From positions 155 through 64,154 of the forward strand of contig JAJDAQ010000054.1 in assembly GCA_029261815.1 (NCBI GenBank): DNA of 64,000 nucleotides, written 5' to 3'. A program made the position numbers and the translations under genes. This document shows positions 24,462 to 58,916 of the stretch, piece after piece. How positions within the stretch are numbered: the first letter of the stretch is position 1; every line of letters begins with the position of its first letter. Below the pieces are notes generated by a model. It saw only the letters and a program-made list of their open reading frames with translations. It was not told the DNA's origin and made no database searches. Source of the DNA: Deltaproteobacteria bacterium. GTDB taxonomy: Bacteria; Myxococcota_A; UBA9160; UBA6930.

Positions 24462-24512
24462 GAATCTGTCACCACCACGGTGTCCCTGCGGCTGCACAGG
24501 AGCACCGGAACA

Positions 24513-43765: not shown

Positions 43766-46700
43766 CTAATCGTCGGACGCCTCGAGTTCGTCCGTCAGCA
43801 GATCGCTTACGAATAGCAGCGGGAAGTTCGAGGTGCGCCTTCCGGTCTGGTACCCGCGACCTCCCGAGGCCATCCATCTCACTTCGTAGTCGAAATCAGA
43901 GGCCCCTTTGGGCAACATGAAATGGACGCGACTGGCAAGGTCGGGACTGCGCAACGTGGTCCGCTTCCGGTTCGTCTTCCCTGCGAGGTCGTAGTAGACG
44001 TCCACGACGGCCGCCCGCACGCCGCGTTCGTCCCAGCTGTCCGGGTCCGCATCGACATCGACGTAGGTGCGCTCGTAGGGTGGAAGCACCGCGATCGCAC
44101 TCGCGGTGGCCGGTTGCCATTCCCCTTCGACCGAATTGCCGCCGAAGAAACTCCAGAGCGCACGCCACTCGTAGCCCTGCCAGGCATCGCGATCGTCGTC
44201 GCCCTTCCAGCCGTACAAGAGGCTGAACTGGTTGTCGGATGCCTCTGCATTGGTCCGATCGATGCGGATTTCGTCCCGCGTGACCTCACCACTCTCGTGG
44301 GTCTTTCGCAGCTGTACGGTGACAAAGTTGATGTATTCCTTGAAGTCGTCGAGTTGCTTCATGTCGACGAAGACAGCGAGTTCGCGCTGCTTCAGGAATG
44401 CGTCATCCAGATTGACGCTCCGGAACACGCGATCGTCATCGAGATAGCGCCGGAGGCTCCCGATGTTCACTCCGAAGTCCACCGGAATCCGGGTTTCGCG
44501 GGACTTGTTGAAGTCGAGCTGGAACTTGAACTGGTGGCGCTGCTTTTTCATCTCGAACTTGGCAACGACGGCGGTTGCATCCTCGACCGACGCCGCGCTT
44601 TCCCGAGCGTCATCGGCCTCCTCTTGCAACGAGTTGGCCCTGGCGCGCTGCTCGCTCGCGATCGTCTCGTAGCGCGTCCCCTCGCCCTGCACGTAACTCA
44701 CCCAGCTGGCCAATTCGGCCGCGGGCGTATCCGCCAATTGCGTTTGCGTCGGGCAGGAAAAGGCACCGATGGTTGTCGCAGCACTCGGTCGCGTCGAGGC
44801 CGAACTCGTCGTCGGGCGTCGCCCGGGGGTGGTCGCCGTCGGCCGGGTGCTCGTGGGGCGCGTAGGGGTCGGGCGGGTGCTCGTAGTCGCAGGACGCTGA
44901 CGGGTCGTGCCGGTCGCCGTCGTGTTGCGGCGCGTGCCGCTGGTACTCGCCGTCTGACTGGTCCGGGAACCGCTGTTAGGCCCCGTTGTGTTGCCAGCCG
45001 GAGGTGATGCCTGACGCCGCGTCCGGCGAGGCGGCGTACGCGTGGCGACATCGGTCGAGAGATCCGCTGACTCGTCGTCGATGCCACGCGGAGCCGGTGT
45101 CCCATCGGCGTTGCGGGGGGGCGAGGTCGAATTGCCACTCGGCGGTGTGCCACCACTTCCGCTCGAAGGAGACGGCGGCGCTGCCCCTGCGGGTCCGTTG
45201 GCCGGCGGATTCGCGGAAATCCGGACCGGCGGCAATGTCACAACGTCGTCGGGCCCTGACCCGCCAGCCGGAGGAGTCGCGTCTCCGGCCGGCCCCGATC
45301 CACTCCCATTCGTGGCAGGCGTCGGAGGCTTCACGCCGGCCGGTGTCGGGCTAGCGGCTCGCTGCGGCGGCGTCGGCGCGGGCGGTGTCGGGCTGGCGGT
45401 TCGCTGCGGCGGCGCCGGAGTGGGCGGTGTCGGGCTGGCGGTTCGCTGCGGCGGCGTCGGAGTGGGCGGTGTCGGGCTGGCGGTTCGCTGCGGCGGCGTC
45501 GGAGTGGGCGGTGTCGGACTAGCGGTCCGCTGCGGCGGCGTCGGAGTGGGCGGTGTCGGACTAGCGGTCCGCTGCGGCGGTGTCGGGCTGGCAGTCAATC
45601 CCGGCGCCGGAGGAGACGGCGGTGCGGTGGGGCTGGCACTCAACAAGGACGGCGTCTGGGTGACGGTCCCGCCCTGCGTTCGGATCTGCGCCGCGACGGC
45701 CGCGATCTGGCGCAGCTTTTGTTCCGACGCTGCCGAATCGAGTGTGCTCTTCGTCGCTTCGTAGTCCTCGACGAGCCTCCGGTGGCGTTCCGTAAGCTGC
45801 TCGAGATCGGCCTTCTCCCGTTCCTCGCCCGCCTGGCGATTCGCAAAGGCCGTCACGGTCTGGATGCAAGATCGAGCAGCCTGCGCGTTCTGCTCGGCCT
45901 GGGTCGCGAGGTTGCGGGCTTCGGTTGCCTCGGTCTTGGCACGGGTGGCGGCGGCGAGGCGCTCACTACGCCGGTCATCGCGAAGTTTCTCGGCCGCAGT
46001 CATCAGGTCGTCCCCGCCGGTCGAAGCAGCCGCCATCTGTGTTCGGCCCGCGGCGACCAACCCGGTCGAGGGGTTGAACATCAGGTCTCGCAACTTGTCG
46101 TAGGTCTCGTCGATCAGCTCCTCGACTTTCGCATCCGTCCCGACCTGGGTGATCTGGATGGCGCCCGATTGCTTCAGCTCATCGAAGGCGACATCGATCT
46201 GGGCCTGGGTCATCGGAGCCGAGATCCCCGCCTGGAACCGTTGGTGGTCGTAGATCTGGTCCCAATCGGCGACAAGCTTGGCGCGCACGGGCGTGCGGAA
46301 GCCATCGAGCTTCATCTTGAACGAGAAGCTCAGATCGGCGGTATCGGTATTGAAGCTCTCCCAGAGCCTCTCCACGCCGGCCTCGGTCAGCCGGATCGAG
46401 ATCGGTGCGCGCGCGCCCTCCAATACCGGCGCCGTGCCCGTCCCGACGACGGCTGTGGCGAGCGCGGGAAGCTCTCCTTCTCCGCTCCCCGTCGGCCCTT
46501 CCTGGGGTTGGAATTGGGTCACGAGCGCCAGCTCTCCTTCGCTGAAGGTCGCCGCGGCCACGATCTTGCCGGCGGGATTGAAATCCTTCAGTGCGCGCTC
46601 AGCCTCGCGGAGCGCTTCCTCCCGTTGGCTCTCCGGCACGCCGAGTTGGACCACCGCGTGCACGATGCCGTCGACCAGGGGCTGCGCCGCTTCCTCGGCG

Positions 46701-46993
46701 CCGGCCTCGGTCTTGCGGTTCTTCACGTAACGCACGAACGAGAACTTGGGCCGGCCGTTCTCGATGGCCAGGCTCGCGGTCCGGGGCACGTAGTAATATT
46801 CGTTCGGATCGTCCACCGTCGGAAACAGGGTGTAGGCACCCGCGGTCACCGCGCGGTCGATGAAGATCGCCTGGGTCGCACCGCCATCGGCTCCCCGGGT
46901 CACCACGATCAGCTGCGCGCCGACCGGGTTCGCAGAAAGTCCCACGCAGATCGACAGCAGGACACCGATGGCTTGTCGCGTGCCAGAACGCAT
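43766..46993 (-). CDS. secreted protein, YYxP-module paralog G with coiled-coil and Pro/Thr-rich insertion
   Basis: ORF 43766..46993(-), with GGGAGAA upstream. The signal peptide is AIGVLLSICVGLSANPVGA. N-module: DDPNEYYYVPRTASL, KFSFVRYV, GTGTAPVLEG. The C-module matches A/B: FRSVNLDDAFLKQRELAVFVD, YINFVTVQLRKTH, FSLLYGWKGDDDRDAWQGYEWRALWSFFGG. The two modules are separated by about 420 aa of coiled-coil plus low-complexity sequence. Confidence 0.85.
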   Translation of the reverse strand: MRSGTRQAIGVLLSICVGLSANPVGAQLIVVTRGADGGATQAIFIDRAVTAGAYTLFPTVDDPNEYYYVPRTASLAIENGRPKFSFVRYVKNRKTEAGAEEAAQPLVDGIVHAVVQLGVPESQREEALREAERALKDFNPAGKIVAAATFSEGELALVTQFQPQEGPTGSGEGELPALATAVVGTGTAPVLEGARAPISIRLTEAGVERLWESFNTDTADLSFSFKMKLDGFRTPVRAKLVADWDQIYDHQRFQAGISAPMTQAQIDVAFDELKQSGAIQITQVGTDAKVEELIDETYDKLRDLMFNPSTGLVAAGRTQMAAASTGGDDLMTAAEKLRDDRRSERLAAATRAKTEATEARNLATQAEQNAQAARSCIQTVTAFANRQAGEEREKADLEQLTERHRRLVEDYEATKSTLDSAASEQKLRQIAAVAAQIRTQGGTVTQTPSLLSASPTAPPSPPAPGLTASPTPPQRTASPTPPTPTPPQRTASPTPPTPTPPQRTASPTPPTPTPPQRTASPTPPTPAPPQRTASPTPPAPTPPQRAASPTPAGVKPPTPATNGSGSGPAGDATPPAGGSGPDDVVTLPPVRISANPPANGPAGAAPPSPSSGSGGTPPSGNSTSPPRNADGTPAPRGIDDESADLSTDVATRTPPRRTRRQASPPAGNTTGPNSGSRTSQTASTSGTRRNTTATGTTRQRPATTSTRPTPTRPTSTRPTATTPGRRPTTSSASTRPSAATTIGAFSCPTQTQLADTPAAELASWVSYVQGEGTRYETIASEQRARANSLQEEADDARESAASVEDATAVVAKFEMKKQRHQFKFQLDFNKSRETRIPVDFGVNIGSLRRYLDDDRVFRSVNLDDAFLKQRELAVFVDMKQLDDFKEYINFVTVQLRKTHESGEVTRDEIRIDRTNAEASDNQFSLLYGWKGDDDRDAWQGYEWRALWSFFGGNSVEGEWQPATASAIAVLPPYERTYVDVDADPDSWDERGVRAAVVDVYYDLAGKTNRKRTTLRSPDLASRVHFMLPKGASDFDYEVRWMASGGRGYQTGRRTSNFPLLFVSDLLTDELEASDD
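45342..45595 (-). repeat. 42-bp in-frame tandem repeat (about 5.5 copies plus a degenerate end) encoding PPQRTASPTPPTPT
   Basis: Read directly on the + strand. The unit ggtgtcgggctggcggttcgctgcggcggcgtcggagtgggc repeats at 45342, 45384, 45426, 45468 and 45510, with a partial copy at 45552. A few substitutions occur between copies. Confidence 0.9.
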
Positions 46994-47237: not shown

Positions 47238-48035
47238 ATGCAGTTCCTGAGAACCCGACGTGTCGCTGCGCTGTTTCATTCAGCGCTGTGGGGGGCCATC
47301 TCCGCTGGGGCCCGGATCTCGGCGCTGCTCGCCGCCGGAATCCTCCTGGGCTCCGCGTCTGCAAGCGCCCAACTCGAGGACGACTTCGAAGCGGCCGCCC
47401 CGGAAGGCGAGGTCACGCGACCGACCGAGGCTGTGCGCGGGCAAGGGATCCGTCGCCGCAGCGTGGGTTGCTCGATCCTCGATCAGACCGCATTCACCCC
47501 GGTCGAGAAGCGAAAGGCCGAGCGTCCGCTCTCGGCGATCCAAGGCATCGTGCTCCACCAGACCGGCTTCCGGCGCGGAAGCGACGCGGACCGCTATCGC
47601 CGGGTCACCTCCCACTTCGTGATCCTGCCGGATGGCCAGATCGTGAAGAACCACCCTGAAACGTCAGTCGTCTGGGCATCGAACGGTTTCAACGCGTACA
47701 CCGTGGCCATCGAGTTCGCCGGAAACTTTCCCAGTGCGCGGGGGCGATGGTGGAAGCCGGATGACTACGGGCGACATCGCCCGACGAGCGCCCAGATCGC
47801 CTCGGGACAATGCCTCGTCCACAAGCTCTACTTCGACATCGAGTCCATCGTCTGGATCCTTGCGCACCGGCAGGCGAGTCCACGGCGCGGGAACGACCCC
47901 GGACCCGATATCTGGTACGAGGTCGGTGACTGGGCCGTTGCCGAACTCGAGATGAACGACGGCGGACTCGGCTTCTCGATCAACGGGGGCCGATCGATTC
48001 CGGACAGTTGGAGAACCCCGCCGGGTGAGCGCTGA
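47238..48035 (+). CDS. secreted N-acetylmuramoyl-L-alanine amidase (amidase_2 / PGRP-type)
   Basis: ORF 47238..48035(+). Has an N-terminal hydrophobic signal region. IQGIVLHQTG, AIEFAGNF and ILAHRQASPRRGNDPGPDIW resemble the AmpD/T7-lysozyme-type amidase fold. Confidence 0.7.
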   Translation: MQFLRTRRVAALFHSALWGAISAGARISALLAAGILLGSASASAQLEDDFEAAAPEGEVTRPTEAVRGQGIRRRSVGCSILDQTAFTPVEKRKAERPLSAIQGIVLHQTGFRRGSDADRYRRVTSHFVILPDGQIVKNHPETSVVWASNGFNAYTVAIEFAGNFPSARGRWWKPDDYGRHRPTSAQIASGQCLVHKLYFDIESIVWILAHRQASPRRGNDPGPDIWYEVGDWAVAELEMNDGGLGFSINGGRSIPDSWRTPPGER

Positions 48036-48075
48036 AGCGCACCCAACGTCCTCGTGCCCACCAAGGAGTCCGACC

Positions 48076-48783
48076 ATGCGTATCGAGATCCTCCACCGCT
48101 CACTCGCGGTCCTGTTCGCTGCAACGCTGTTGCTTCCGATCGCGGGCGCAGCCCAGGAAGAAGAGGAAGAGCTGACTTTGGCTGTGCGGGTCGAGAAGCG
48201 CACCAGCGACGAATTCGTGCGGACCGTCAAGGATCCCGAGGTCCGCTCCCGGGTGGCCGCACAGTCTTGTAGCGCCGCGAACACCACCAAGGCCGAGGAA
48301 GCGCGCCGGGCCGGCGCCATCCGCGCTCAGGTCGCGACGGATCGCGCCCGCGGAATCCATCCCACAACGGGCCAAAGTGATCGCATGCGGACACGGAGTC
48401 TGGCAGCGGAACTGATTGGATGGGACGTCAACTACGACCAGGTCATCGAGATCACCGAGGAGATCCGCGACAAGCTCACCAATCACAACCTCCAGGTGGC
48501 CTGCACGACCGCGCGCGATCCCTATTGCTCTGGACGCAACGCCTATGTGGTCGACTACTCGCGGCCGATTCATCTCTGCCCGTCCTACTTCAAGTCGAGC
48601 GCCGAGGAGCGCATCCGCACGATCATCCACGAGACCGCCCATCTGGCCGGCATCGGTGAGGAAGGTGGCGAGAGCTACTGCGGCCTTTTCGACTGTCAGA
48701 TCAACTGCGGTGGCTTCTACGCAGCGGACTCGTGGGCCCACTTCATCCACTGCGCGAGTGGCCGACCCGCCGACAATCCGTAG
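48076..48783 (+). CDS. secreted zinc metalloprotease-like protein (M35/aspzincin-like, HExxH)
   Basis: ORF 48025..48783(+). The start is ATG 48076, after AAGGAG. The signal peptide is LAVLFAATLLLPIAGAA. NAYVVDYSRPIHLCPSYF...RIRTIIHETAHLAG fits the bacterial Lys-specific metalloendopeptidase-like pattern. The distal GTxDxxYG motif was not seen. Confidence 0.5.
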   Translation: MRIEILHRSLAVLFAATLLLPIAGAAQEEEEELTLAVRVEKRTSDEFVRTVKDPEVRSRVAAQSCSAANTTKAEEARRAGAIRAQVATDRARGIHPTTGQSDRMRTRSLAAELIGWDVNYDQVIEITEEIRDKLTNHNLQVACTTARDPYCSGRNAYVVDYSRPIHLCPSYFKSSAEERIRTIIHETAHLAGIGEEGGESYCGLFDCQINCGGFYAADSWAHFIHCASGRPADNP

Positions 48784-48888
48784 GCCGACGGGCATGCGCG
48801 AGGCGCGGGAGAAACGCTCGGTGTGGAATCGACGAGCACACTCCGCCCTTGCGGATAGAACGCAGCCGTTTCGAAAAGGAGTTCGATC

Positions 48889-49362
48889 ATGAAGTTCATC
48901 GCAGTGCTAGTCGCAGCGGGGCTGGCGGTGACGGCGACTGCCGCATTGCACGCCGACCCCGCCGAAGACGCCATCGATGGGCCGCGCGAAGTCTACGAAT
49001 CTCGCGCCACGATCGATCTCCCGGCGGACCCCGATCCCGAACTCGCCGAACGCTGCTACGAGCATGGCGTCACGGTTCCAGCCGAGTGGAGTGACTTCCG
49101 ATCCACGATCGAACGCTGGATCGCGACCTGCGTCTCGTCGCGAACGGTCGTCAATGGAAAGCCCATCCGCCGCGAGCGACAGCTCGTTCGCGGCAATGCA
49201 TCGCTCACCGACGTCTGGAACCTCCTGCAGGACGACGGTGTCACCGGCGAGCCGGTCCAGATCTTCGCGGACTACGAGTTCGAGGGACGTCGCGTGGTCG
49301 ACATCTTCTTCTTCCTCTACGAAGCACCGGATCCGGAGGACGCGGGCACAACGAACCCATAA
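48889..49362 (+). CDS. secreted hypothetical protein
   Basis: ORF 48889..49362(+), with AAGGAG upstream. The signal peptide is MKFIAVLVAAGLAVTATAALHA. No family was recognised. Confidence 0.6.
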   Translation: MKFIAVLVAAGLAVTATAALHADPAEDAIDGPREVYESRATIDLPADPDPELAERCYEHGVTVPAEWSDFRSTIERWIATCVSSRTVVNGKPIRRERQLVRGNASLTDVWNLLQDDGVTGEPVQIFADYEFEGRRVVDIFFFLYEAPDPEDAGTTNP

Positions 49363-49416
49363 GACCCGCCCTGCTCCTCGCCGCGATCGTGTGCGGCGGC
49401 GCGCTAGGCTGGGCGG

Positions 49417-50466
49417 ATGATGCCGTCCCTCCGCACAGCGATCGCGACTGGGTCGCTCCTGCTGGGCCTCGGCGTGCTGCCGGCGTTCGGCGACGGTTTC
49501 GACTCGAGTGAGGCGCGTGCCAAGGCGATCGAGGCGTTGCGCCACGCCACGCCCGCCGACGCGACGCGGCTCGACTTCGTGATGGAGGCACCGTCGGGTG
49601 CGGCGCTCGATCGCGGCGCCAACGAACGAAGGATCGGAGATGGCGTCCGCTACCACCTACGGACCGATGGCCGCCGCCACCTCCTCGTCGTACAGGTGGA
49701 CGCCCAGGGCGTCGTCACCGTCCTCGCGCGAACAACGACCGCGGCGGGCGAGAAGGTCAGCAAGCTTCCGCCGGCCGGAGAAAAGGAGTGGGTCGCCCTG
49801 CCCCCAGTTGGCCCTGTTGAGGTATTCGCCTGGGCCACGTTCGCGCCGATCGAAGTACCTGACCTGCCGGACGATCCCACAATCGCGTTCTTCGAAGGCA
49901 AAGCGGCCGTCGCGTTCGCGAACGGAATCAGTGAGGCCCTCGATCGGTTGGGACCGGATCAGGTCGCTTCCGCGGAGCTGCAGACGACCACCCTTGGACG
50001 AGCCGGTAGACGCGGTGTCCAACTGGTGGGGAGTAGCAACGCCCCGATCCCCGACTACCTCGCGAGCGACGTCGTCGCCTATTTCACCTCCGAGCGCGCG
50101 CAGCGTGTCCAGGCGGCAAGGCTTGACCTGCAGGTCCGCTTCGCCTCGGGTTCGGACCAGCTGGGTGCCGAGACACGGGCCAACCTGGAGATCATCGCCG
50201 TCGCGCTGCTGGCAGAGCGGCTGCGCGATCGTGGGTTCGTGGTCGGCGGCCACACGGATGACACCGGCCCGGCCGCCTTCAACCTGGAGCTTTCCAGGAG
50301 GCGTGCGGAGGCCGCCCGCGACTACCTCATCGAACGCGGGGTAGCGGAGAGCCGGTTGCGGGTTCAAGGATATGGGGAGACACGCCCCTTGCAGGCGGAC
50401 GCGAGCGCACAAGCACGAGCCTTGAATCGGCGCGTGGAGTTCGAGATGCAGGCGGACGGCGGCTAG
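49417..50466 (+). CDS. OmpA-family peptidoglycan-binding protein with N-terminal DUF4384-like domain
   Basis: ORF 49417..50466(+). Has a signal peptide and HLLVVQVDAQGVVTVLAR...VEVFAWATF (DUF4384-like). The C-terminal OmpA_C-like core reads VGGHTDDTGPAAFNLELSRRRAEAARDYL...NRRVEF. Confidence 0.8.
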   Translation: MMPSLRTAIATGSLLLGLGVLPAFGDGFDSSEARAKAIEALRHATPADATRLDFVMEAPSGAALDRGANERRIGDGVRYHLRTDGRRHLLVVQVDAQGVVTVLARTTTAAGEKVSKLPPAGEKEWVALPPVGPVEVFAWATFAPIEVPDLPDDPTIAFFEGKAAVAFANGISEALDRLGPDQVASAELQTTTLGRAGRRGVQLVGSSNAPIPDYLASDVVAYFTSERAQRVQAARLDLQVRFASGSDQLGAETRANLEIIAVALLAERLRDRGFVVGGHTDDTGPAAFNLELSRRRAEAARDYLIERGVAESRLRVQGYGETRPLQADASAQARALNRRVEFEMQADGG

Positions 50467-50557
50467 ACGCCCAACGCCAAGGGAAATCACCGGTTGACAT
50501 TGCGAATGGCCCAGACATAACATGCCTACCCTTGGGGGGCTTTGCGGAGTCCAGTCG

Positions 50558-52222
50558 ATGCGGATTGCTGCCGCTGTTGCAGCTTGCCTGCTTGCGTTTC
50601 CAGCCGTTGCACAAGAGTTGCCGCCCGCTGCGGATCCGGGCGTCGTCCAGCGACGTTTCGAGATTCCCCGCCCGTCCGTCCCGGACACAGACGGGCTGGC
50701 ACCGGCTGCACCTCGGCTCGTGCCTCCGCCCGGCGCCGAGTCCGTGCAGTTCATCCTTCGCGAGGTCATCGTCGAGGGGAGCCAGGTCTACGACGCGGAG
50801 CAGCTCGCGCGCGCCTGGGCACCGCATCTTTCGAAGCAGGTCTCACTGGCCACGGTCTTCGAGATCGCTGGCCGGCTGACCGCCCGCTACCGCAATGATG
50901 GCTTCGTTCTTTCCCAGGTAATCGTGCCTCCGCAGGAGGTCGATGACGGCCGCATCCGTCTACGGGCCATTGAGGGCTTCGTGGAAGAGGTCCTGATCGA
51001 GGGCGAGGCACACCTTCCCGCCCTCTGGGAGGCGCACGCGGAGAGAATCCGCACGGCCCGCCCTTTGGACGCGAACACCCTGGAACGGGCGGTGTTGCTT
51101 CTCAATGACCTGCCCGGCGCCGGCGTGCGCGCCGTGCTGCGGCCGTCCGGCAAGACCGTGGGCGCTTCGCACCTCGTCCTGCTCGCGGCCCAGGAACCCG
51201 CCCTCGCCTATCTCGACACGAACAATCGTGGCACGCGCTTTCTCGGTCGCTATCAGGGCGAAATCGGTGTGACGTTGAACTCGTGGCTCGACCGCTATGA
51301 GGAGACCCAACTTCGCTTCACCCACACCTTCGACAATGAGCTCGCCTTGCTCAGTCTCGATCACAGCGAACAGATCGGCACGAACGGCACCCTGCTCACG
51401 CTCTCCTTCTCCTACGCCGACACGGAGCCGGGCGGGACACTGCGCGCGTTCGATGTCGAGGGCGAAGCCGTCTCGGGTGCGATCAGCCTGCGCCATCCCT
51501 TCATCCGCTCGCGCACACAAAACCTGGTCGGCTGGGCACGATTCGACTACCTCGACTCCAGCAACGACATCCTGCGTCGCTCCCTGTCCGAGGATCGCAT
51601 CCGAGCCCTGCGGATTGGCGCATCCTACGACATCGTCGATCGCTTCGAAGGAATCAATCTGCTCGTCGCGGAGCTAAGCCGCGGCGTGGACGTGCTGAAC
51701 GCGACCGATTTCGGGGACGCGAACAATTCGCGACTGGGTGCCAAAGGTTCGTTCGCGAAGGTCCACGTGAGTGCCTCCAGGCTCCAACGGCTCGGCGGCG
51801 GATTCAACGTGCTGGGCACCCTGTCCGGCCAGTACGCGTTCGACCTCCTGCTCTCGGCCGAACAGTTCACGTTCGGTGGGGCCGATCTCGGACGGGGTTA
51901 CGACGCGGCCGAGATCATCGGGGATCACGGCCTCGCGAGCTCGATCGAACTGCAGTGGGGCCGCGCGCTCGGTTTCGCAGCGCTCGAGGGAATCCAGTTG
52001 TTCGCCTCATACGACTTCGGGGTCGTCTGGCAACGTGACGAGCGCCTGCCCGTTCGGCGCAGTACGGCCTCCTCGGTGGCCGTTGGCGCCCGCCTCAATC
52101 TGACGCCTTGGCTTTCCGCACGGGTGTCCGTTGCGTTGCCACTGACCCGACCCGCCACCGTCGACCGCGACGACGGTGCACACAAGCCCCGCCTCTTCTT
52201 CGGCCTAACGGCCCGCTACTGA
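50558..52222 (+). CDS. ShlB/FhaC/HecB-family two-partner secretion transporter (TpsB)
   Basis: ORF 50522..52222(+). The start is ATG 50558 (MRIAAAVAACLLAFPAVAQE signal peptide). Has POTRA-like segments (FILREVIVEGSQVY, IRLRAIEGFVEEVLIEG) and a beta-barrel body ending in FFGLTARY. Confidence 0.8.
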   Translation: MRIAAAVAACLLAFPAVAQELPPAADPGVVQRRFEIPRPSVPDTDGLAPAAPRLVPPPGAESVQFILREVIVEGSQVYDAEQLARAWAPHLSKQVSLATVFEIAGRLTARYRNDGFVLSQVIVPPQEVDDGRIRLRAIEGFVEEVLIEGEAHLPALWEAHAERIRTARPLDANTLERAVLLLNDLPGAGVRAVLRPSGKTVGASHLVLLAAQEPALAYLDTNNRGTRFLGRYQGEIGVTLNSWLDRYEETQLRFTHTFDNELALLSLDHSEQIGTNGTLLTLSFSYADTEPGGTLRAFDVEGEAVSGAISLRHPFIRSRTQNLVGWARFDYLDSSNDILRRSLSEDRIRALRIGASYDIVDRFEGINLLVAELSRGVDVLNATDFGDANNSRLGAKGSFAKVHVSASRLQRLGGGFNVLGTLSGQYAFDLLLSAEQFTFGGADLGRGYDAAEIIGDHGLASSIELQWGRALGFAALEGIQLFASYDFGVVWQRDERLPVRRSTASSVAVGARLNLTPWLSARVSVALPLTRPATVDRDDGAHKPRLFFGLTARY

Positions 52223-52257
52223 TCGGATTCTCGACCGCCTCCAAAGGAGCCACCCCC

Positions 52258-55200
52258 ATGTTGCCTCTTCCGCGCTGCTACCGGGCTCTCAAGCGCACCT
52301 CGAGTGCCGCTCTCGTCACACTGTTGATATGTCAGATGATGACGCTGCCCGCCTGGGCCAACCCCCAGGGCGGAAGCGTCGTCGCGGGCGATGCGCAGAT
52401 CCAGCAGCGTTCGCCGTCGCGTCTCGATGTCATCCAGGGCAGCCAGCGGGCCATCATCGACTGGCGATCCTTCTCGATCGGCGCGGGCGAGCACACGCAC
52501 TTCGACCAACCTTCCGCTAGTGCAGTGGTCCTGAATCGCGTTCCCAACGGTGACGTCTCGCGCATCTTCGGAACCCTGACCGCCAACGGAAAGGTCATCC
52601 TGGTCAACCCGCGCGGTATCCACTTCGGAGCCTCCTCAAACGTCGACGTCGCCGGAATGCTTGCAACGACGGCCGACATCGCCAACGACGACTTCATGGC
52701 GGGCAAGCTGAACTTCGCAATCCCGGGCAACCCCGACGCGCGGATCCTGAACGAGGGCACGATCACCGCGCGCAATGGCGGCCTCGTCGCACTCGTGGCG
52801 CCCTGGGTGGAGAATCGCGGCGCGATTCACGCGACGCTGGGACGCGCGACCCTGGCCTCCGGCGACACCTTCACGCTGGACCTCTATGGCGACGGCCTGA
52901 TCGAGTTGGCGGTATCCGATGACACCGCGCAACGCCTCGTCGGTACCGCATCGAACACGGGCCTGATCGAAGCCGACGGCGGAGTCGTCTCCATGCTCGC
53001 GGCCGACGCCGCGAACGCGGTCGACAATGTCATCAATCTGGATGGCGTTGCCCTCGCGCGCTCGTTCGCCCAGATCGACGGACGGATCGCCTTGCTAGGC
53101 GGTGACACCTCAGCCGTCACCGTCGCCGGGACCCTGGACGCATCCGGCTCGCATGGCGGCGCGATCGACGTCGCCGGCGGCGATCTCCACCTCACCTCCA
53201 CAGCGCGACTCGACGCCTCCGGCGATTCAGGCGGCGGGAACATTCGCGTCGGTGGCGAACTGCAAGGCGGCCCCGGCCTGCTCGCGGCGCAGCGGGTCCG
53301 GATCGACGCCGGTGCAGAACTCCTCGCCGACGCGCGGGAGTCCGGCGATGGTGGCACGATCATCGCGTGGTCGGACGGCACGATGGACTACGAGGGCGCG
53401 CTCTCTGCTCGCGGCGCTGCTGGCGGCTCGGGCGGGTTCGCCGAGATCTCGGGGCTACAAGGGCTTCGCTATCGCGGGACCGCCCAGCTCGGGGCCGGTG
53501 GCCGCCTGTTGCTTGACCCCCACGACATGGTCGTCGGCGTCGGACTCGACGCCACCATCGGCGTCGATGCGATCCGACGCCAGATGATCGCGGGAACCAC
53601 CGTCGAACTCGTCACGACCGACGATCTGACGGTGACCAGCACGATCGACGGTCGGGTTTCGACAGGGGGCACCTCCGGTGGCGGACTCGTACTTCACTCC
53701 CTGACCGGCAACGTGTTCATCGACGCGGACATCATCACCCATGATGGGGCGATCGGCGTCGAGGCGCTGCAGCAGGTCGTCATGTCACCGACGTTGGGAG
53801 GCCTCAGCGGAGACGGGGTCGCCCTCGTCGTAACGGACGGAGCGGGCGCGCTCGGGAACGCGCCCATCTCGATCACCTCGGGCGGAACCGCGGACCTCCA
53901 GTATCTCGCGACACTGGGCGATGTCAGCGTCGATGCCGGCGGCCAGGCGATCCTGAATCGCGACCTCGGAACCCTCAACAACCCGCTCGGATCCCTGAGC
54001 GTCCAGGGCAACGGCGTGACGCTGCCGGCCAATGTGATCACGGCCAACGGCAACATCAGCGTCATGTCCACCGGGGCCCTCCAGATGGCCCAGCACATGC
54101 TCGTGTCCGATGGATCCGGAACGGCCGCTGCGGGAGTCGGCGATGTCTTCCTTTCCTTCGGCAGTGGCGACCTCGACCTCGGCGACCTCGAGACCCGGGG
54201 GTTGATCGATGTCGACTTCACGGGTTCCGCTGGCGGGAAGGTGACGATCTCCGAGGCACTGGGCGGCAGCGGCAGCCCGATCGGCGGGCTCGACATCGAC
54301 GCCCCCGACGTCGACCAGCGAGCCGAGATCGTGGCGCTCGGCGATGTCCGCCTCGGCCGCGTCGCCGGCGACGTGACCCTGCGGCGCGACATCTTCACCG
54401 GTGGCGGCGACTTCGAATCCCGCGGCCACACGATCATCGATCCGCGACGGCCGCTACTCGACGCGATGGGCAACCCGATCATGGTCACCAAGGTCTTTGG
54501 CATCACCGACGCGGGCGAACTCATCTATGGCTTCGATCCGATGACCGGTGCCCCGATCGTCGACCCGACGCACCTGGAGCCGGCACTTGGTGTCCAAGAC
54601 CTGGCCGACTACCGATACCGGCTGATCCAGGGGCAAGGTGACTTCACGATGACCCCGTTTACGGCAGCCGAGCAGTTCGTCCTGAACCTCGCCCAGGACA
54701 AGCCGGCAATCGCGGCGTTGATCCCAAACCTCTATCAGGCCAGCGAGACTGCGAACACCTTCAACGGCAACATCGGAAAGATCGTCACGACGACGTGGAC
54801 GCTCACGATCGACACGATCGGCGCGTTGGGAAGCGGCGACGTCAATTTCAACGGCACGGTCGGTCCGCCCGACATGTGGGGTGGCGCCATTTCTCTTTCC
54901 CAGGCCCCATTCCAGAGCACCGGACACCTGCCGCCCGGAATCACCGGCGAGGTCTTCTCGTCACCCGCGTTCACGGACCCGTTCGATGGGACGCCCGTCA
55001 GCGCCAAATTCTTTGCCCATGGCGACGGCTGGGTCGCTGGACCTGTCTTCCCCGGCCCGACGAACGGGTGGGACGCAGGCGCGCAGGGAACCTTCGAGCG
55101 CGTCGAACTCGCAATCAACGCAGGCACCGGCAACATCGACTTCGGCGGCGAACTCGCATCGATCCAGCGCAGCATCCAGGGCATCAGCTACGACGCCCTG

Positions 55201-56037
55201 CATCTGAACATCGAGAGCGCGGGTGGGTTGAGCTTCAACGCGGATCCTCTGTTGAACAACCGGCTGAACAGCCTGCGGATTCCGGACACGTTGGTGGCGT
55301 TGCCACTAACGTTCCCGACGACGGGCTTCCCGCGGGTCGATACCAGTCAGACCGGTTACTACCGGTTGATCACGGGCGGATTCATGATCCCGGACACCTT
55401 CCAGCTCGTGCAGGACAGCTCGGGCCTCTCGCTCGTGGACGCCACCAGCTCCGTCCCAAACGCCGTGGTCGTCCTGACCATCCCTTCCGCGTTGAATCCC
55501 AAGCCGACTACGAGCACGATCGCCTCATCCACCAACCCGGGTGCCAGCGGCACCGGATCGGCGGGCGGGTACATGTTCACAGGAGGCGGAACCGGCCTGT
55601 TCGGCGGGACCACCACGCTCCCCGGAGCGCCGGGCGCTCCGCCAACACTCCTGGGCGCGGGACCGGAAACCGGCATCACCTTTGCGCTGGAACAGAGCCT
55701 GGGCGAGTCGCACGCAACCGGCGAAGAGGATCCGGTCGAAACCACCGAAGAGCAGTTCGCCGATGGCCGGGACTGCCCGACCACGGCGCCCTCCGCCTAT
55801 CAAGCCACACCGGGCGACGCGGCCTTCGCGGGCGACCCGCGCGGCAATCCCTACTCGGTCGACGCGTTCTGCGGGAGCTATGACCTCGTTGACACCCAGG
55901 ACCCGCGCGGCGAACACTACGGCGATCTGACATTCGCGACCCGCGACTTCTGGACCGACGCAGAGCAGGCGCGTAGCCCACTTCCGATCGAAGCCGTCAA
56001 CGTGGCCGCACCGCCGCCCACGGAGGAGAAGCGCTGA
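52258..56037 (+). CDS. two-partner secretion exoprotein (TpsA) with filamentous-hemagglutinin N-terminal TPS domain
   Basis: Track ORF 52108..56037(+). The start is moved to ATG 52258, after AAGGAG. Has a signal peptide and then the TPS domain: ANPQGGSVVAGDAQI, IIDWRSFSIGAGEHTHF, VVLNRV, GTLTANGKVILVNPRGIHFG. A long Gly/Asp/Thr-rich beta-helix-like body follows. No recognisable C-terminal toxin domain. Confidence 0.85.
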   Translation: MLPLPRCYRALKRTSSAALVTLLICQMMTLPAWANPQGGSVVAGDAQIQQRSPSRLDVIQGSQRAIIDWRSFSIGAGEHTHFDQPSASAVVLNRVPNGDVSRIFGTLTANGKVILVNPRGIHFGASSNVDVAGMLATTADIANDDFMAGKLNFAIPGNPDARILNEGTITARNGGLVALVAPWVENRGAIHATLGRATLASGDTFTLDLYGDGLIELAVSDDTAQRLVGTASNTGLIEADGGVVSMLAADAANAVDNVINLDGVALARSFAQIDGRIALLGGDTSAVTVAGTLDASGSHGGAIDVAGGDLHLTSTARLDASGDSGGGNIRVGGELQGGPGLLAAQRVRIDAGAELLADARESGDGGTIIAWSDGTMDYEGALSARGAAGGSGGFAEISGLQGLRYRGTAQLGAGGRLLLDPHDMVVGVGLDATIGVDAIRRQMIAGTTVELVTTDDLTVTSTIDGRVSTGGTSGGGLVLHSLTGNVFIDADIITHDGAIGVEALQQVVMSPTLGGLSGDGVALVVTDGAGALGNAPISITSGGTADLQYLATLGDVSVDAGGQAILNRDLGTLNNPLGSLSVQGNGVTLPANVITANGNISVMSTGALQMAQHMLVSDGSGTAAAGVGDVFLSFGSGDLDLGDLETRGLIDVDFTGSAGGKVTISEALGGSGSPIGGLDIDAPDVDQRAEIVALGDVRLGRVAGDVTLRRDIFTGGGDFESRGHTIIDPRRPLLDAMGNPIMVTKVFGITDAGELIYGFDPMTGAPIVDPTHLEPALGVQDLADYRYRLIQGQGDFTMTPFTAAEQFVLNLAQDKPAIAALIPNLYQASETANTFNGNIGKIVTTTWTLTIDTIGALGSGDVNFNGTVGPPDMWGGAISLSQAPFQSTGHLPPGITGEVFSSPAFTDPFDGTPVSAKFFAHGDGWVAGPVFPGPTNGWDAGAQGTFERVELAINAGTGNIDFGGELASIQRSIQGISYDALHLNIESAGGLSFNADPLLNNRLNSLRIPDTLVALPLTFPTTGFPRVDTSQTGYYRLITGGFMIPDTFQLVQDSSGLSLVDATSSVPNAVVVLTIPSALNPKPTTSTIASSTNPGASGTGSAGGYMFTGGGTGLFGGTTTLPGAPGAPPTLLGAGPETGITFALEQSLGESHATGEEDPVETTEEQFADGRDCPTTAPSAYQATPGDAAFAGDPRGNPYSVDAFCGSYDLVDTQDPRGEHYGDLTFATRDFWTDAEQARSPLPIEAVNVAAPPPTEEKR

Positions 56038-58916
56038 CACCGGACCGCTCCAAAGCGAGGTGGCACTGCGCCTTCGCGACCTTCTTCGCATCGGTACTGG
56101 CCATCCCCGCCCTGGCCACAGACCCACCGCCTGGCCCATTCATCCAGGTCGAAACCGGCATGCACGCGTCGAGCATTCGCGCCTCCGCCCTGGCGCCCTC
56201 CGGCGAGTACGTCGTTACCGGCTCGGCCGACAAGACCGTGCGCCTCTGGGAGCTTCCGTCGCTGCGCCTTCGACGCGTGTTCCGACTCCCCATCGGGAGC
56301 GGCAACGAGGGCCGCGTGCACGATGTCGCGGTTTCCGCCGACAGCCGGGTGGTCGCGGCGGCCGGTTGGACGGGTTGGGAATGGGATGGCAGCGCATCGA
56401 TCTACTTCTTCGACGTCGCCACCGGCGAGATCGCGGCGCGTCTCTCGGGGCTCCCGGCGGCCGTGCGAAACCTGGCCTTCTCCCCCGACGGTCGTCATCT
56501 GGCCGTCGGGTTGATGGGTCGCGCGGGCCTCCGCATCTACCGCACGTCTGATTTCACGCTCGTGCACGAAGACGCGGGGTATCGCGAACGAATTGTCTCT
56601 CTCGATTTCGCCCGCGATGGCCGACTGGCCACGGCCTCCGTGGACGGCCGCATCCGTATCTACTCAAAGGCGTTCGACCTCACGGTCGCGGCCGACGTCC
56701 CCGCTGGATCGACGCCGCTCGAAGTGCGGTTTTCCCCGGACGGGAGCCGTGTGGCGATTGGCTACCACGACCTCCCCCGCGTCGATGTCCTCGACGCCGA
56801 GGATCTCTCCCTCCGCTTCTCGCCGAAGGTTCCGGCGGCCGGACTGGAAGCCCTCTACGCGGTCGAGTGGTCCGAAGACGGCAAAACGCTCTATGCCGGA
56901 GGCCGCCACGACGGCAAGGGACGCAATCCGATCCTCGCGTGGCCGCAGGCCGGCCGCGGCAAGCCACTGCGGCTGCCCGCCTCGCGTGCGCGAATGGGCC
57001 GCCTTCTGCCGCTTCGCGACGGCGGTCTCTTCTGGGGAGCAGAGGATCCTGCGATCGGGTTGTTCGCACGCGACGGGAGCCTGCTCGAAAGAATCGAACC
57101 CCAGACGCTGGACTTTCAGGACCTGGGTGACGAATTGAGGCTCTCGGCCGATGGGTCGGCCGTCGGGTTCCTGACGAGCGACGTGCCTCGCAAGCGCGCC
57201 CACTACTCCTTTCCACGCCGGGGCATCGTCGCGGGCCCGCCCTCCTCGTTCAGGCTGCACGAACCCCGGCGCATCGGCCCCGCCCCTGTGGAGGTCGGAC
57301 TCGACCGCCGCAGCCTCACGATCGGGGGGCGACCGGTGCCGCTCGAACCGTTCGAAGACGTTCGACACTGGGCGTGGTCGGCCGATGGTCAACGTCTCGC
57401 GGTAGCCACCGAATGGGCGGTGCGTGTCTTTGACGCGAACGGCTCGGAGCTCTGGCGACACGCGATGCCCGTGGTGGTGCACGCCGTCAACATCAGCCGT
57501 GATGGCGCGTTCGTCGTGGCCGCGATCTCTGACGGGACACTGCGCTGGTTCCGGCTCGATGACGGCACGCCTGCTGTCTCACTCTTCCCGCACGCCAATG
57601 GAGAGGACTGGGCCGCGTGGCTTCCATCGGGCCACTACGCGGCCTCCCCTCGCGGCGACCGCTACGTGGGCTGGGCGCTGAACCAGGGCGCGAACCGGGA
57701 AGCCCTCTTCTTTCGCGCCGTCCAATTCGAGCGTGTCTTCTACGAACCGCGTCGCATCGAACGTTTCCCGCGGCTCGCCAGTGCCCGAGGGTCGGTCCCA
57801 TTGCAGGCGAAGCGGCTGATGGAACTCGCGCCGCCCCAGGTCGAGATCGAGGTCGCACGCCAGATTCACCCGCGCGCAAGTGGGCCGCTCACGCGGATTC
57901 GCGTGCGGGCAAAGCGGCGCAGCGCCGAGATGGAGCGATTCACCGTCTACGTCAACAAGATCCCGCTCACCCCATTCTCGGATCGGGAACTTCTCGCCGG
58001 GGAGCGTGAATGGGTCGACCGGGAAGTCGAGATCCCGCTACAGGCTCAAATGAATGACATCCGCGTCGAGGTCGACACCGCGCACTCGAGGGCGATCGCC
58101 CGGGTCGCGGTCGAAAACGTCGGCGAGCCGATGACCCAGCAGCAGGGGGATCTCTACGTGCTCGCGGTCGGCGTGAACTTCCTGCGAAACCTCCCGGACA
58201 AGAGTCTTTCCTACGCCGCGCGGGATGCGCGCCGGGTCGGCGCGCTCCTGCAATCGCAGGAGGGCCGCGTCTTCCGCAACGTCCATCTGGAACTGGTCGT
58301 CGACCGTTTGCGCGAACCCGACAAGCGCGGAATCGAAGACGCGCTCGGGTTCCTGCGTCGCGCACGCCCCATCGACACGGTCGTCCTGTTCCTGGCGGGC
58401 CACGGTATCCGCGATGTCAGCGGCAACTACTACTTCGTGCCGTCCGATGCCTCGCGCGAGGAGATCGTTGCACTGGAGACCGGTGCGACGAAGGCTCCCA
58501 GCCTCGTGCGCTGGAACGCCTTCCTGGACGGGCTTCAATCTGCGGTCGGGCGGCGGGTATTGATCGTCGATACCTGCCATGCGCAGCAAATTCGCGGACG
58601 CCTGGAACTTGACTGGCTGGCCAAGCACTCGGCATCGGCCATGTTCGCGATGCTGGCCGCTTCGGCCCCGCAAGAACGATCGGAGGAGAACGCGCGCTTC
58701 GGTGCCGGCCTCTACACGCAGGGGCTACTCAGCGCTCTCTCGGGAAGCGGCGACGCCAACCAGGATGGCGTGGTCACGATCGTCGAAGCGCATCGCGCCG
58801 CTGGCGATTTCGTCAAGACCCACCGCAAGGGGGACCAGGAACCGCGATTCTTCGCGCCGCCCGAATTCTCCTCGATGGCGCTGACCGCCACGCCCGATGG
58901 AACCAGCGGCGACTGA
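56034..58916 (+). CDS. exported WD40-repeat / caspase-family (peptidase C14) protein; probable CTG start
   Basis: Track ORF 56160..58916(+). Has WD40 repeats (TGSADKTVRLWEL and others) and a C-terminal caspase-like domain with LFLAGHG and LIVDTCHAQQ. The frame is open from 55977. Upstream of the first ATG it encodes a signal peptide RSKARWHCAFATFFASVLAIPALA. The only start-like codon there is CTG 56034, 5 nt after GGAGGAG, overlapping the TpsA stop (CTGA). Confidence 0.7.
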   Translation: MTPDRSKARWHCAFATFFASVLAIPALATDPPPGPFIQVETGMHASSIRASALAPSGEYVVTGSADKTVRLWELPSLRLRRVFRLPIGSGNEGRVHDVAVSADSRVVAAAGWTGWEWDGSASIYFFDVATGEIAARLSGLPAAVRNLAFSPDGRHLAVGLMGRAGLRIYRTSDFTLVHEDAGYRERIVSLDFARDGRLATASVDGRIRIYSKAFDLTVAADVPAGSTPLEVRFSPDGSRVAIGYHDLPRVDVLDAEDLSLRFSPKVPAAGLEALYAVEWSEDGKTLYAGGRHDGKGRNPILAWPQAGRGKPLRLPASRARMGRLLPLRDGGLFWGAEDPAIGLFARDGSLLERIEPQTLDFQDLGDELRLSADGSAVGFLTSDVPRKRAHYSFPRRGIVAGPPSSFRLHEPRRIGPAPVEVGLDRRSLTIGGRPVPLEPFEDVRHWAWSADGQRLAVATEWAVRVFDANGSELWRHAMPVVVHAVNISRDGAFVVAAISDGTLRWFRLDDGTPAVSLFPHANGEDWAAWLPSGHYAASPRGDRYVGWALNQGANREALFFRAVQFERVFYEPRRIERFPRLASARGSVPLQAKRLMELAPPQVEIEVARQIHPRASGPLTRIRVRAKRRSAEMERFTVYVNKIPLTPFSDRELLAGEREWVDREVEIPLQAQMNDIRVEVDTAHSRAIARVAVENVGEPMTQQQGDLYVLAVGVNFLRNLPDKSLSYAARDARRVGALLQSQEGRVFRNVHLELVVDRLREPDKRGIEDALGFLRRARPIDTVVLFLAGHGIRDVSGNYYFVPSDASREEIVALETGATKAPSLVRWNAFLDGLQSAVGRRVLIVDTCHAQQIRGRLELDWLAKHSASAMFAMLAASAPQERSEENARFGAGLYTQGLLSALSGSGDANQDGVVTIVEAHRAAGDFVKTHRKGDQEPRFFAPPEFSSMALTATPDGTSGD

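What the first reader, a model, noticed from the sequence alone, without database searches (positions are those of the whole stretch)
49417..58916. Two-partner secretion pair translationally coupled to an exported WD40-caspase
The gene order is OmpA/DUF4384, TpsB (POTRA + barrel), TpsA (1259 aa, TPS domain, no recognisable toxin tip), then WD40 + C14 peptidase. The reading frame of the last gene overlaps the TpsA stop. Established knowledge: some TpsA exoproteins need dedicated periplasmic or surface proteases for maturation, for example FHA processing by SphB1. Inference: the WD40-caspase may be a dedicated processing or quality-control protease for this TpsA. A C14 enzyme would be an unusual class for that role.
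Basis: partly seen in the sequence, partly recalled or inferred. Interest (0 to 1): 0.65.

Follow-up and report, generated by a model that had tools for sequence, protein, structure and literature searches.

The report
Secretion cassette with its own exported caspase
A bacterial two-partner secretion operon carries its own exported caspase-like protease, and this pairing recurs across several phyla together with a matching tail on the secreted protein, which points to a candidate substrate for a large, uncharacterised family of bacterial caspase homologues.

Summary
Window 49417-58916 encodes, on the + strand, an OmpA-like protein, a TpsB, a 1259-aa TpsA and a WD40 + Peptidase_C14 protein.

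The last gene has no ATG/GTG/TTG before its signal peptide. It most likely starts at CTG 56034, which overlaps the tpsA stop (CTGA) and follows GGAGGAG. Two orthologous loci have TTGA at the same place.

- **Export:** about 109 of 120 caspase homologues carry a signal peptide.
- **Linkage:** 52 of 62 loci with at least 7 kb upstream have TpsB, a TPS-domain protein or a tagged protein directly upstream, across at least three phyla.

New here: whatever protein sits before the caspase ends in a conserved C-terminal tail. The window's tail is a Cys-Cys domain with Arg-Gly. TpsA relatives with a tail have a clan-CD peptidase beside them (WD40-C14, C14-FGE-sulfatase or TPR-CHAT) in 5 of 5 loci. Those without a tail have none in 3 of 3.

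Best reading: a periplasmic, peptidoglycan-tethered, metacaspase-like protease that recognises and cuts the exoprotein's tail. No cleavage has been shown. I found no published description. This is a new variant of a known kind.

The parts
49417..50466 (+). Exported OmpA-like peptidoglycan-binding protein, 349 aa. OmpA domain at aa 241-338 (nt 50137-50430). Weak DUF4384-like region at aa 72-141 (nt 49630-49839).
   Evidence: Pfam OmpA E=2e-20; DUF4384 E=0.008, below cutoff. 40% identity over 281 aa to the syntenic OmpA gene of L106, E=6e-49. Its OmpA part matches the C-terminal extension fused to caspase P0005, E=5e-7. GC3 pattern typical of coding sequence.
50494..50523 (+). Promoter-like site TTGACA-18-TAACAT just before tpsB. 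If it is used, TpsB would start at Met13 (nt 50558).
   Evidence: Consensus scan, 10 of 12 matches. This is a pattern match only.
50522..52222 (+). TpsB outer-membrane transporter, 566 aa. POTRA_2 at nt 50750-50977; ShlB barrel at nt 51191-52093.
   Evidence: Pfam POTRA_2 E=1e-16, ShlB E=2e-20. A TpsB is present upstream of the caspase in 47 of 62 loci.
52258..56037 (+). TpsA exoprotein, 1259 aa. TPS domain at aa 36-292 (nt 52363-53133). No toxin domain found.
   Evidence: Pfam TPS E=2e-30; TIGR01901 E=3e-20. AAAGGAG lies before ATG 52258. 1418 homologues found.
55726..55980 (+). C-terminal tail domain of TpsA (aa 1157-1241). It holds the only two Cys of the mature protein, C1173 (nt 55774) and C1205 (nt 55870), which flank R1195-G1196 (nt 55840). 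A second Arg-Gly is at aa 1217-1218. This is the proposed recognition and cleavage tag.
   Evidence: A tail HMM trained without the window hits it at E=2.5e-29. A profile search of 1.84 billion proteins gave 43 cluster representatives, all matching at the extreme C-terminus. Cys and Arg-Gly positions.
56022..56037 (+). Coupling junction: GGAGGAG (56022-56028), a 5-nt spacer, CTG start (56034-56036), overlapping the tpsA stop TGA (56035-56037).
   Evidence: Sequence read directly. L001 and L106 have TTGA at the same place. No differences in contigs of runs X1, X2 and X3.
56034..58916 (+). Exported WD40 + C14 (metacaspase-like) protease, 960 aa from the CTG. Signal peptide aa 1-27 (nt 56034-56114). 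Tandem WD40 propellers about aa 36-560 (nt 56139-57713). Beta-sandwich aa 600-695 (nt 57831-58118). Caspase domain aa 705-955 (nt 58146-58898). Catalytic H790 (nt 58401) and C848 (nt 58575). EF-hand-like loop DANQDGVVTIVE.
   Evidence: Pfam. Alignment A1: His and Cys invariant in 31 sequences, leader conserved. AF2 model pLDDT 84.5, pTM 0.76. Tandem-propeller matches in Foldseek. Profile against PDB: best hit is metacaspase-4 6w8s, E=1e-3.

Best explanation
This is a four-gene type Vb (two-partner) secretion cassette with its own envelope protease.

Shown by sequence:
- TpsB and TpsA are a standard transporter-exoprotein pair.
- The last gene encodes a Sec-exported protein with two WD40 propellers, a beta-sandwich and a metacaspase-like C14 domain with an intact His-Cys dyad.
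- The cassette, the export signal and a C-terminal tail on the upstream protein are all conserved.

Inferred:
- The protease stays in the periplasm, held near the transporter through peptidoglycan. In the window a separate OmpA-like protein would do this. In close relatives an OmpA-like domain is fused to the caspase itself.
- TpsA is threaded out N-terminus first, so its C-terminal tail is the last part left in the periplasm. In the window, that tail is probably closed by a C1173-C1205 disulfide.
- The propellers bind the tail, and the caspase domain cuts after a conserved Arg. Candidates are R1195 or R1217, each followed by Gly.
- The cut matures or releases the exoprotein from the cell surface.
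- The CTG start overlapping the tpsA stop would make the enzyme only when tpsA is translated, and at a low ratio.
For: **Linkage.** 52 of 62 caspase loci with at least 7 kb upstream have TpsB, TPS or the tail directly upstream on the same strand. Pfam-annotated neighbourhoods agree in L001, L002, L003, L103 and L106.

**Export.** The leader is conserved.

**Active enzyme.** H790 and C848 are invariant. The nearest solved structures by profile are metacaspases. All characterised non-caspase C14 enzymes cut after Arg or Lys (PMC5756287).

**The tail.**
- A motif hhhxGGRGxAQxxD[LF]GR...DVF was found by HMM in about 40 ORFs at E<0.01. All lie 0-38 aa from the C-terminus of the protein upstream of the caspase. 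No other ORF in the loci or the window scores better than E about 0.5.
- The tail occurs on TPS proteins of 800-2400 aa and also on short Pro/Ala-rich proteins with no TPS domain.
- The window's own tail belongs to a sister family, E=2.5e-29, which is always C-terminal.

**Tail versus peptidase.**
- TpsA relatives with a tail have a clan-CD peptidase beside them in 5 of 5 loci. Tail-less relatives have none within 8 kb in 3 of 3.
- Tail type follows caspase clade.
- WD40-linked window-type tails all have Arg-Gly inside the Cys loop. The FGE-sulfatase-linked ones do not.

**Tethering.** An OmpA-like gene is present in 26 of 100 loci. It is fused to the caspase in P0003 and P0005.
Against: - No cleavage, localisation or phenotype data exist.
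- HMMs of the canonical GGRG tail do not detect the window's tail (score about 0). Homology between the two tail families rests on a shared DVF...hV...Y.GL.F..DFW core seen by eye and in weak hits.
- Tail and caspase could co-occur simply because the cassette is inherited as a unit. The tail also tracks TpsB, so it could serve the transporter rather than the protease.
- In some loci the protein ends 1-2 residues after ...DFGR. A cut there would remove too little to act as a periplasmic plug.
- The AF2 model of the tail was uninformative (pLDDT 48).
- Ten loci with the most distant caspases (31-34% identity) have no TPS genes.
- The 5-versus-3 context comparison is small.
Confidence: 0.55

Rival explanations
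1. Quality control or timer. The tail is a C-terminal degron, and the caspase degrades TpsA molecules that stall or fail to leave the periplasm. This would resemble the way CtpA and DegP act on the FhaB prodomain. It would not be a specific maturation cut.
For: The tail sits at the extreme C-terminus, sometimes ending right at ...DFGR[RE]. That placement suits end-recognition. The C-terminus is the last part exposed in the periplasm.
Against: Conserved Arg-Gly dipeptides and a Cys-bounded loop suggest a defined site rather than bulk degradation. Tails also occur on short non-TPS proteins that would not stall in a transporter.
Confidence: 0.15
2. Sortase-like transpeptidase. Other clan-CD enzymes (PorU, GPI8, legumain) cut a C-terminal tag and transfer the new end to an acceptor. 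By analogy, this caspase would cut the tag and join the new C-terminus to peptidoglycan or an outer-membrane component, anchoring the exoprotein covalently.
For: Short, sharply conserved C-terminal tags resemble sorting signals. They occur on unrelated proteins, including Pro/Ala-rich, periplasm-spanning-looking ones. There is a constant association with OmpA-like peptidoglycan-binding modules.
Against: No transpeptidation is known for family C14. No acceptor was identified. This rests on analogy only.
Confidence: 0.1
3. The caspase is itself the payload or an executioner. Either it is carried out or presented by the TPS system as an effector, or it is an envelope-level cell-death or defence protease for which the TpsA acts as a sensor.
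For: Bacterial caspase homologues are usually discussed in the context of cell death and defence. Some loci have TpsB followed directly by the caspase (L053). The window holds two further exported C14 genes.
Against: The caspase has no TPS domain, which TpsB needs for recognition. PADLOC gives only generic domain hits. This idea does not explain the tail co-variation.
Confidence: 0.1
4. Neighbours without direct interaction. The genes travel together and are co-regulated as an envelope or biofilm island, but the caspase acts on other substrates.
For: The window is rich in exported proteases and unknown exported proteins.
Against: Same-strand adjacency holds across phyla at 37-58% identity. Start and stop overlap in three loci. 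The tail is present in 5 of 5 loci with a peptidase and absent in 3 of 3 without.
Confidence: 0.07

Closest known systems
CdrA/CdrB with LapG (Pseudomonas aeruginosa)
   Same: A TPS exoprotein is held at the surface by a periplasmic C-terminal tail and released by a periplasmic, Ca-dependent cysteine protease (PMC5422565). That CdrA's tail contains cysteines is from my own knowledge. The window's TpsA has a two-Cys tail, and the caspase has an EF-hand-like loop.
   Different: LapG belongs to family C93, not C14. Its gene is not in the TPS operon, and LapD and c-di-GMP control it. No TAAG site lies near the window's C-terminus. No LapD-like gene was annotated in the fetched neighbourhoods, though I did not search for one specifically.
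FhaB/FhaC processing by SphB1, CtpA and DegP (Bordetella)
   Same: The C-terminal part of a TpsA is removed stepwise by envelope proteases during and after secretion.
   Different: Those proteases are serine enzymes encoded elsewhere in the genome. The FhaB prodomain is very large, whereas here the tail is about 45-90 aa.
Orthocaspases and metacaspases (family C14, e.g. Microcystis MaOC1, AtMC4 6w8s, Yca1 4f6o)
   Same: Caspase fold, His-Cys dyad, Asp two residues before the catalytic Cys, and best profile matches to metacaspases. P1 Arg/Lys specificity is expected. WD40 is the commonest partner domain in prokaryotic homologues (PMC3501461).
   Different: This one is exported, has N-terminal tandem propellers, and is linked to a secretion operon. 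The 2012 operon survey does not mention haemagglutinin or TPS neighbours.
PorU, the clan-CD C-terminal signal peptidase of type IX secretion
   Same: A caspase-fold peptidase removes a conserved C-terminal tag from proteins crossing the outer membrane. This is from my own knowledge.
   Different: Different family (C25), different secretion system and different tag. The resemblance is functional analogy only.
Sister cassettes found here: TpsB-TpsA-TPR/CHAT and TpsB-TpsA with C14-FGE-sulfatase
   Same: Same layout, with an exported caspase-fold peptidase and often an OmpA-like gene. Each has its own TpsA tail.
   Different: The accessory domain is TPR or FGE-sulfatase rather than WD40. The CHAT type has the tail FSN[LF]GNEELW.

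Membership tests
Two-partner (type Vb) secretion system | TpsB with ShlB-type POTRA domains and an Omp85-type barrel | tested here: met
   PF08479 E=1e-16; PF03865 E=2e-20
Two-partner (type Vb) secretion system | TpsA with an N-terminal TPS domain (NPNG-type motif) behind a signal peptide | tested here: met
   PF05860 E=2e-30; TIGR01901 E=3e-20; leader seen in the translation
Two-partner (type Vb) secretion system | tpsB and tpsA adjacent on the same strand | tested here: met
   35-nt gap, same strand
Two-partner (type Vb) secretion system | TpsB-dependent secretion of TpsA | not testable with these tools
   Needs an experiment
Peptidase family C14 (metacaspase/orthocaspase type) | Caspase (p20-like) fold | tested here: met
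   PF00656, 41.4 bits against a cutoff of 21.4. AF2 shows an alpha/beta domain at aa 705-955. Profile hits to metacaspase-4 and Yca1.
Peptidase family C14 (metacaspase/orthocaspase type) | Catalytic His-Cys dyad | tested here: met
   H790 (LAGHG) and C848 (DTCHA) invariant in 31 sequences
Peptidase family C14 (metacaspase/orthocaspase type) | Acidic S1 pocket and cleavage after Arg/Lys | tested here: inconclusive
   D846 lies two residues before the Cys and is nearly invariant. The pocket was not modelled against a substrate and no assay exists.
LapG/CdrA-type release system | Protease of family C93 (LapG-like) | tested here: not met
   The enzyme here is C14. It may work like this system but is not a member.
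LapG/CdrA-type release system | TpsA tail with paired cysteines and a TAAG-type site | tested here: inconclusive
   Two Cys (1173, 1205) are present. There is no TAAG, and AAG occurs only at aa 387 and 624.
SphB1-type maturation | Subtilisin autotransporter protease | tested here: not met
   No S8 domain in the window cassette. A subtilase-like gene does sit between tpsA and the caspase in L033, L045 and L065.
Known anti-phage defence systems (PADLOC) | Match to a system-specific model | tested here: not met
   Only generic caspase and MotB-domain models hit

The most novel reading that the evidence does not exclude
The exported caspase is a sorting enzyme rather than a simple protease. It would recognise a C-terminal tag on TpsA and on unrelated Pro/Ala-rich proteins, cut after Arg, and join the new end to peptidoglycan or an outer-membrane acceptor. 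That would be a sortase-like surface-anchoring pathway in diderm bacteria, built on the caspase fold, with WD40, FGE-sulfatase and TPR/CHAT versions each reading its own tag.
Probability: 0.1. Interest if true: 0.9.

Novelty: new variant of a known kind. Interest (0 to 1): 0.72.

Why it matters
Bacterial caspase homologues are numerous, and most are discussed in the context of cell death. Their substrates are largely unknown.

Here a family of more than 1200 exported WD40-caspases gains a specific genomic partner and a short candidate substrate tag. The question 'what does it cut?' can therefore be tested with a peptide assay.

For the type V secretion field, this would be an operon-encoded processing enzyme. 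The 2017 review says such genes are not found in TPS operons (PMC5422565). The C-terminal tags would then predict which exoproteins are handled this way.

The parallel CHAT and FGE-sulfatase versions suggest a general pairing of caspase-fold enzymes with TPS cargo.

Tried and rejected
- **Start at ATG 56160**, as in the public gene call (P0001, 918 aa). Rejected, because it would discard a conserved signal peptide and the conserved segment before 'ETGMH'.
- **ORF 48977-49420** as an upstream coupled gene. Rejected on GC3. The real gene is 48889-49362.
- **Homologue search with the C-terminal half of TpsA.** It returned nothing, probably because low-complexity words filled the candidate list.
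- **Single-sequence PDB search of the caspase domain.** No relevant hit. A profile was needed.
- **Foldseek of the whole model.** The WD40 propellers dominated, so it says nothing about the caspase domain.
- **Canonical-tail HMMs on the window's TpsA.** Not significant.
- **AF2 of the tail domain.** pLDDT 48, uninformative.
- **NCBIfam.** No specific model for the caspase, the tail or the cassette.
- **PADLOC.** No defence system.
- **Literature.** Seven searches combining TPS, TpsA, TpsB or haemagglutinin terms with caspase, orthocaspase, metacaspase or CHAT terms found nothing that links them. One further search, DUF4384 with caspase, also described no such link.
- **Sequencing error at the CTG.** Rejected.


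Full report
**1. What is in the window**

On the + strand, 49417-58916 holds four genes.

- **OmpA-like protein, 49417-50466.** OmpA E=2e-20. The DUF4384 match is only E=0.008 and falls below Pfam's cutoff.
- **TpsB, 50522-52222.** POTRA_2 plus ShlB.
- **TpsA, 52258-56037, 1259 aa.** The only family hits are the TPS domain (E=2e-30) and TIGR01901.
- **WD40 + Peptidase_C14 protein, ending at 58916.**

GC3 patterns support all four as coding. They also show that the real upstream neighbour is a 157-aa signal-peptide protein at 48889-49362. The sequence comes from a biofilm metagenome, with near relatives in coral-reef and sponge metagenomes.

**2. The junction**

The mechanical ORF list starts the last gene at ATG 56160. 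The frame, however, is open from 55977, and the residues before that ATG read as a signal peptide (RSKARWHCAFATFFASVLAIPALA|TDPPPGPFIQVETG).

This stretch contains no ATG, GTG or TTG. The only candidate start is CTG 56034-56036. It overlaps the tpsA stop (CTGA) and lies 5 nt after GGAGGAG.

The 58%-identical orthologue L001 and the locus L106 both have TTGA at the same junction. Contigs from three independent runs agree with the window base for base across it.

Translational coupling is a reasonable inference, but it relies on a rare start codon.

**3. The protease family**

A search returned 1223 proteins at E<=1e-10. The listed ones are about 930-1125 aa and cover 94-100% of the query at 37-58% identity.

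In a 31-sequence alignment the catalytic His (LAGHG, H790) and Cys (DTCHA, C848) are invariant. A leader peptide precedes a conserved 'EPxxxPILRVETGMH'.

By a hydrophobicity heuristic, 106 of 120 homologues have the leader, plus three more by eye. The rest are gene calls that begin at the internal Met, as the public call for this window does.

AlphaFold (pLDDT 84.5, pTM 0.76) gives a leader helix, tandem WD40 propellers (about aa 36-560), a beta-sandwich (aa 600-695) and an alpha/beta caspase domain (aa 705-955). Foldseek matches are tandem-propeller proteins.

A profile of the caspase domain finds metacaspase-4 (6w8s, E=1e-3) and Yca1 (4f6o) as the nearest solved structures. It also shows an EF-hand-like loop, DANQDGVVTIVE. 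All characterised C14 enzymes other than animal caspases cut after Arg or Lys (PMC5756287).

**4. Is the linkage conserved?**

Pfam-annotated neighbourhoods of homologues at 38-58% identity show TpsB-TpsA-caspase. These are L002 (Thauera sp. 2A1), L003, L103 and L106. On the short contig L001, only tpsA-caspase is held.

I fetched 80 genome loci and 19 metagenome loci. I then scanned their ORFs with HMMs built from the window's proteins.

Among 62 non-redundant loci with at least 7 kb upstream:

| Feature directly upstream, same strand | Loci |
|---|---|
| TpsB | 47 |
| TPS-domain protein | 45 |
| At least one of TpsB, TPS or tail | 52 |

The ten loci with none are the most distant caspases (31-34% identity). 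By record titles, carriers include Beta-, Gamma- and Deltaproteobacteria, Acidobacteriota and Planctomycetales.

An OmpA-like gene is present in 26 of 100 loci. In the window's own clade it is either a separate syntenic gene (L106, 40% identity, E=6e-49) or fused to the caspase C-terminus (P0003 and P0005).

**5. A tail on the upstream protein**

The protein encoded just before the caspase ends in a shared motif, roughly hhhxGGRGxAQxxD[LF]GR...PDVF.

An HMM of this motif hits about 40 ORFs at E<0.01. Every one is on the caspase strand, upstream of the caspase, and 0-38 aa from the C-terminus. Nothing else in the loci or the window scores better than E about 0.5.

The tail sits on TPS proteins of 800-2400 aa. 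It sits on both copies where two tpsA genes are in tandem (L009). It also sits on short Pro/Ala-rich exported proteins that have no room for a TPS domain (L006, L025, L029, L032, L074).

These HMMs do not detect the window's TpsA. Instead it belongs to a sister tail family. An HMM trained without the window hits aa 1157-1241 at E=2.5e-29.

Searching that profile against 1.84 billion representative proteins gives only 43 hits, each at the extreme C-terminus.

The mature window TpsA has exactly two cysteines, C1173 and C1205. They flank R1195-G1196, and a second Arg-Gly follows at 1217.

Weaker hits lack the cysteines but keep a DVF...hV...Y.GL.F..DFW core. This core resembles the long form of the GGRG tail. 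The two families are probably related, but I did not show this statistically.

**6. Does the tail go with the peptidase?**

I took 120 TpsA homologues, sorted them by tail type, and looked up neighbourhoods.

| Tail type | Locus | Peptidase beside it |
|---|---|---|
| Window-type | L106 | WD40-C14 |
| Window-type | L104, L105 | C14 fused to FGE-sulfatase, plus OmpA and DUF4384 genes |
| FSN[LF]GNEELW | L108 (Skermanella aerolata), L112/L113 | TPR + CHAT immediately downstream; an OmpA gene follows in L112/L113 |
| None recognised | L107, L110/L111, L114 | None within 8 kb; only TpsB-TpsA |

That is 5 of 5 against 0 of 3.

All the alternative peptidases have signal peptides or lipoboxes. Tail type also follows caspase clade in a clustering of the caspases.

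Within the window-type tails, those linked to WD40-caspases have Arg-Gly inside the Cys loop. Those linked to FGE-sulfatase do not. Most of the latter have an Arg-Gly after the loop instead.

**7. How it most likely works**

The sequence evidence establishes several points:
- a standard TPS pair;
- an exported, apparently active metacaspase-like enzyme;
- a conserved cassette;
- a C-terminal tail that tracks the enzyme.

The rest is inference:
- The enzyme stays in the periplasm, tethered to peptidoglycan by the OmpA-like module.
- The TpsA tail is the last part left in the periplasm during N-first export. In the window it is probably disulfide-closed.
- The propellers bind the tail, and the caspase cuts after a conserved Arg.
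- The cut matures or releases the exoprotein.

Four rivals remain:
- a quality-control or degron role;
- a sortase-like transfer reaction, by analogy with other clan-CD enzymes;
- the caspase acting as effector or executioner;
- co-location without direct interaction.

The main weakness is that co-inheritance of the cassette could produce the same co-variation. The tail also tracks TpsB. In some loci a cut at ...DFGR would remove only one or two residues.

**8. Comparison with what is known**

The cassette is a member of type Vb secretion and of peptidase family C14. Every defining feature I could test was met.

It may work like CdrA/LapG or like FhaB processing, but it is not a member of either. 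LapG is family C93, and the Bordetella proteases are serine enzymes encoded elsewhere.

[quoted passage not shown] The 2012 survey of prokaryotic metacaspase operons does not mention haemagglutinin or TPS neighbours.

Seven full-text searches pairing TPS terms with caspase, orthocaspase, metacaspase or CHAT terms found no paper that links them. NCBIfam and PADLOC hold no specific model.

**9. Verdict**

- **Observation:** confirmed.
- **Interpretation:** supported as far as comparative genomics can go.
- **Mechanism:** untested.
- **Novelty:** a new variant of a known kind. It is widespread and offers a concrete, cheap experiment.

Noticed in passing
window 56022-56037: The caspase gene appears to start at a CTG codon overlapping the tpsA stop (CTGA), behind a strong GGAGGAG. 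Orthologous loci have TTGA. The public gene call starts 126 nt downstream, which cuts off the signal peptide.
   Followed up: yes
window 17520-19589 (-) and 34916-37144 (+): Two more exported Peptidase_C14 proteins lie in the same 64 kb. One is C14 alone (E=2e-39). The other is C14 + DUF4384 (E=1.5e-12), next to a YdbH-like gene at 32166-34856. Both have signal peptides.
   Followed up: partly
window 20866-28615 (-) and 43766-46993 (-): Five paralogous signal-peptide proteins (596-1075 aa, 22-48% identity to each other) have no Pfam match. Four are in tandem, in a stretch of lower GC (0.61) with strong AT skew.
   Followed up: partly
window 47238-49362 (+): Just upstream of the cassette lie an exported Amidase_2 (47238-48035), an Aspzincin_M35-like metallopeptidase that overlaps it by 11 nt (48025-48783), and a 157-aa exported protein (48889-49362). 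They may belong to the same envelope island.
   Followed up: no
L108 8001-16328; L112 6724-15559; L113: A sister cassette, TpsB-TpsA-TPR/CHAT, followed by an OmpA gene in L112/L113. Its TpsA ends in FSN[LF]GNEELW. One carrier is Skermanella aerolata.
   Followed up: partly
L104 3861-13945; L105 4379-14231: TpsA proteins with the window-type tail sit next to an exported C14 fused to FGE-sulfatase, together with OmpA and DUF4384 genes. L104 also carries a Peptidase_C93 (LapG-family) gene and ExbB/ExbD genes upstream.
   Followed up: partly
L006 3430-4818; L025 3307-3981; L029 8024-9964; L032 8115-9962; L074 8680-9741: Between tpsB and the caspase, these loci have short exported Pro/Ala-rich proteins instead of a TpsA. 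They carry the same GGRG...DLGR...DVF tail. How a TpsB would handle a protein without a TPS domain is unexplained.
   Followed up: partly
L036, L038-L041, L043: The Polaromonas/Variovorax/Hydrogenophaga clade has Pro-rich proteins with a different two-Cys C-terminal domain (C[IV]SVSLRPD...LVDLTGDGLI...ARWC) between tpsB and the caspase.
   Followed up: no
L033 about 6435-7883; L045; L065: A subtilase-like gene (GTSxA motif) sits between the tail-bearing TpsA and the caspase.
   Followed up: no
window 58746-58787 (caspase aa 905-918): An EF-hand-like loop, DANQDGVVTIVE, lies inside the caspase domain. Its Asp, Gly and Glu positions are invariant or nearly so across the family, which suggests Ca2+ dependence.
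   Followed up: no
L072, L075, L076 (Geobacteraceae): Distant caspase homologues without TPS genes share a different conserved upstream protein, ending ...GKYWVVLRRSGEAI.NW.YTPGK.YGG.DDTRSTARGWQWEDILTYDFVFKVAGR.
   Followed up: no
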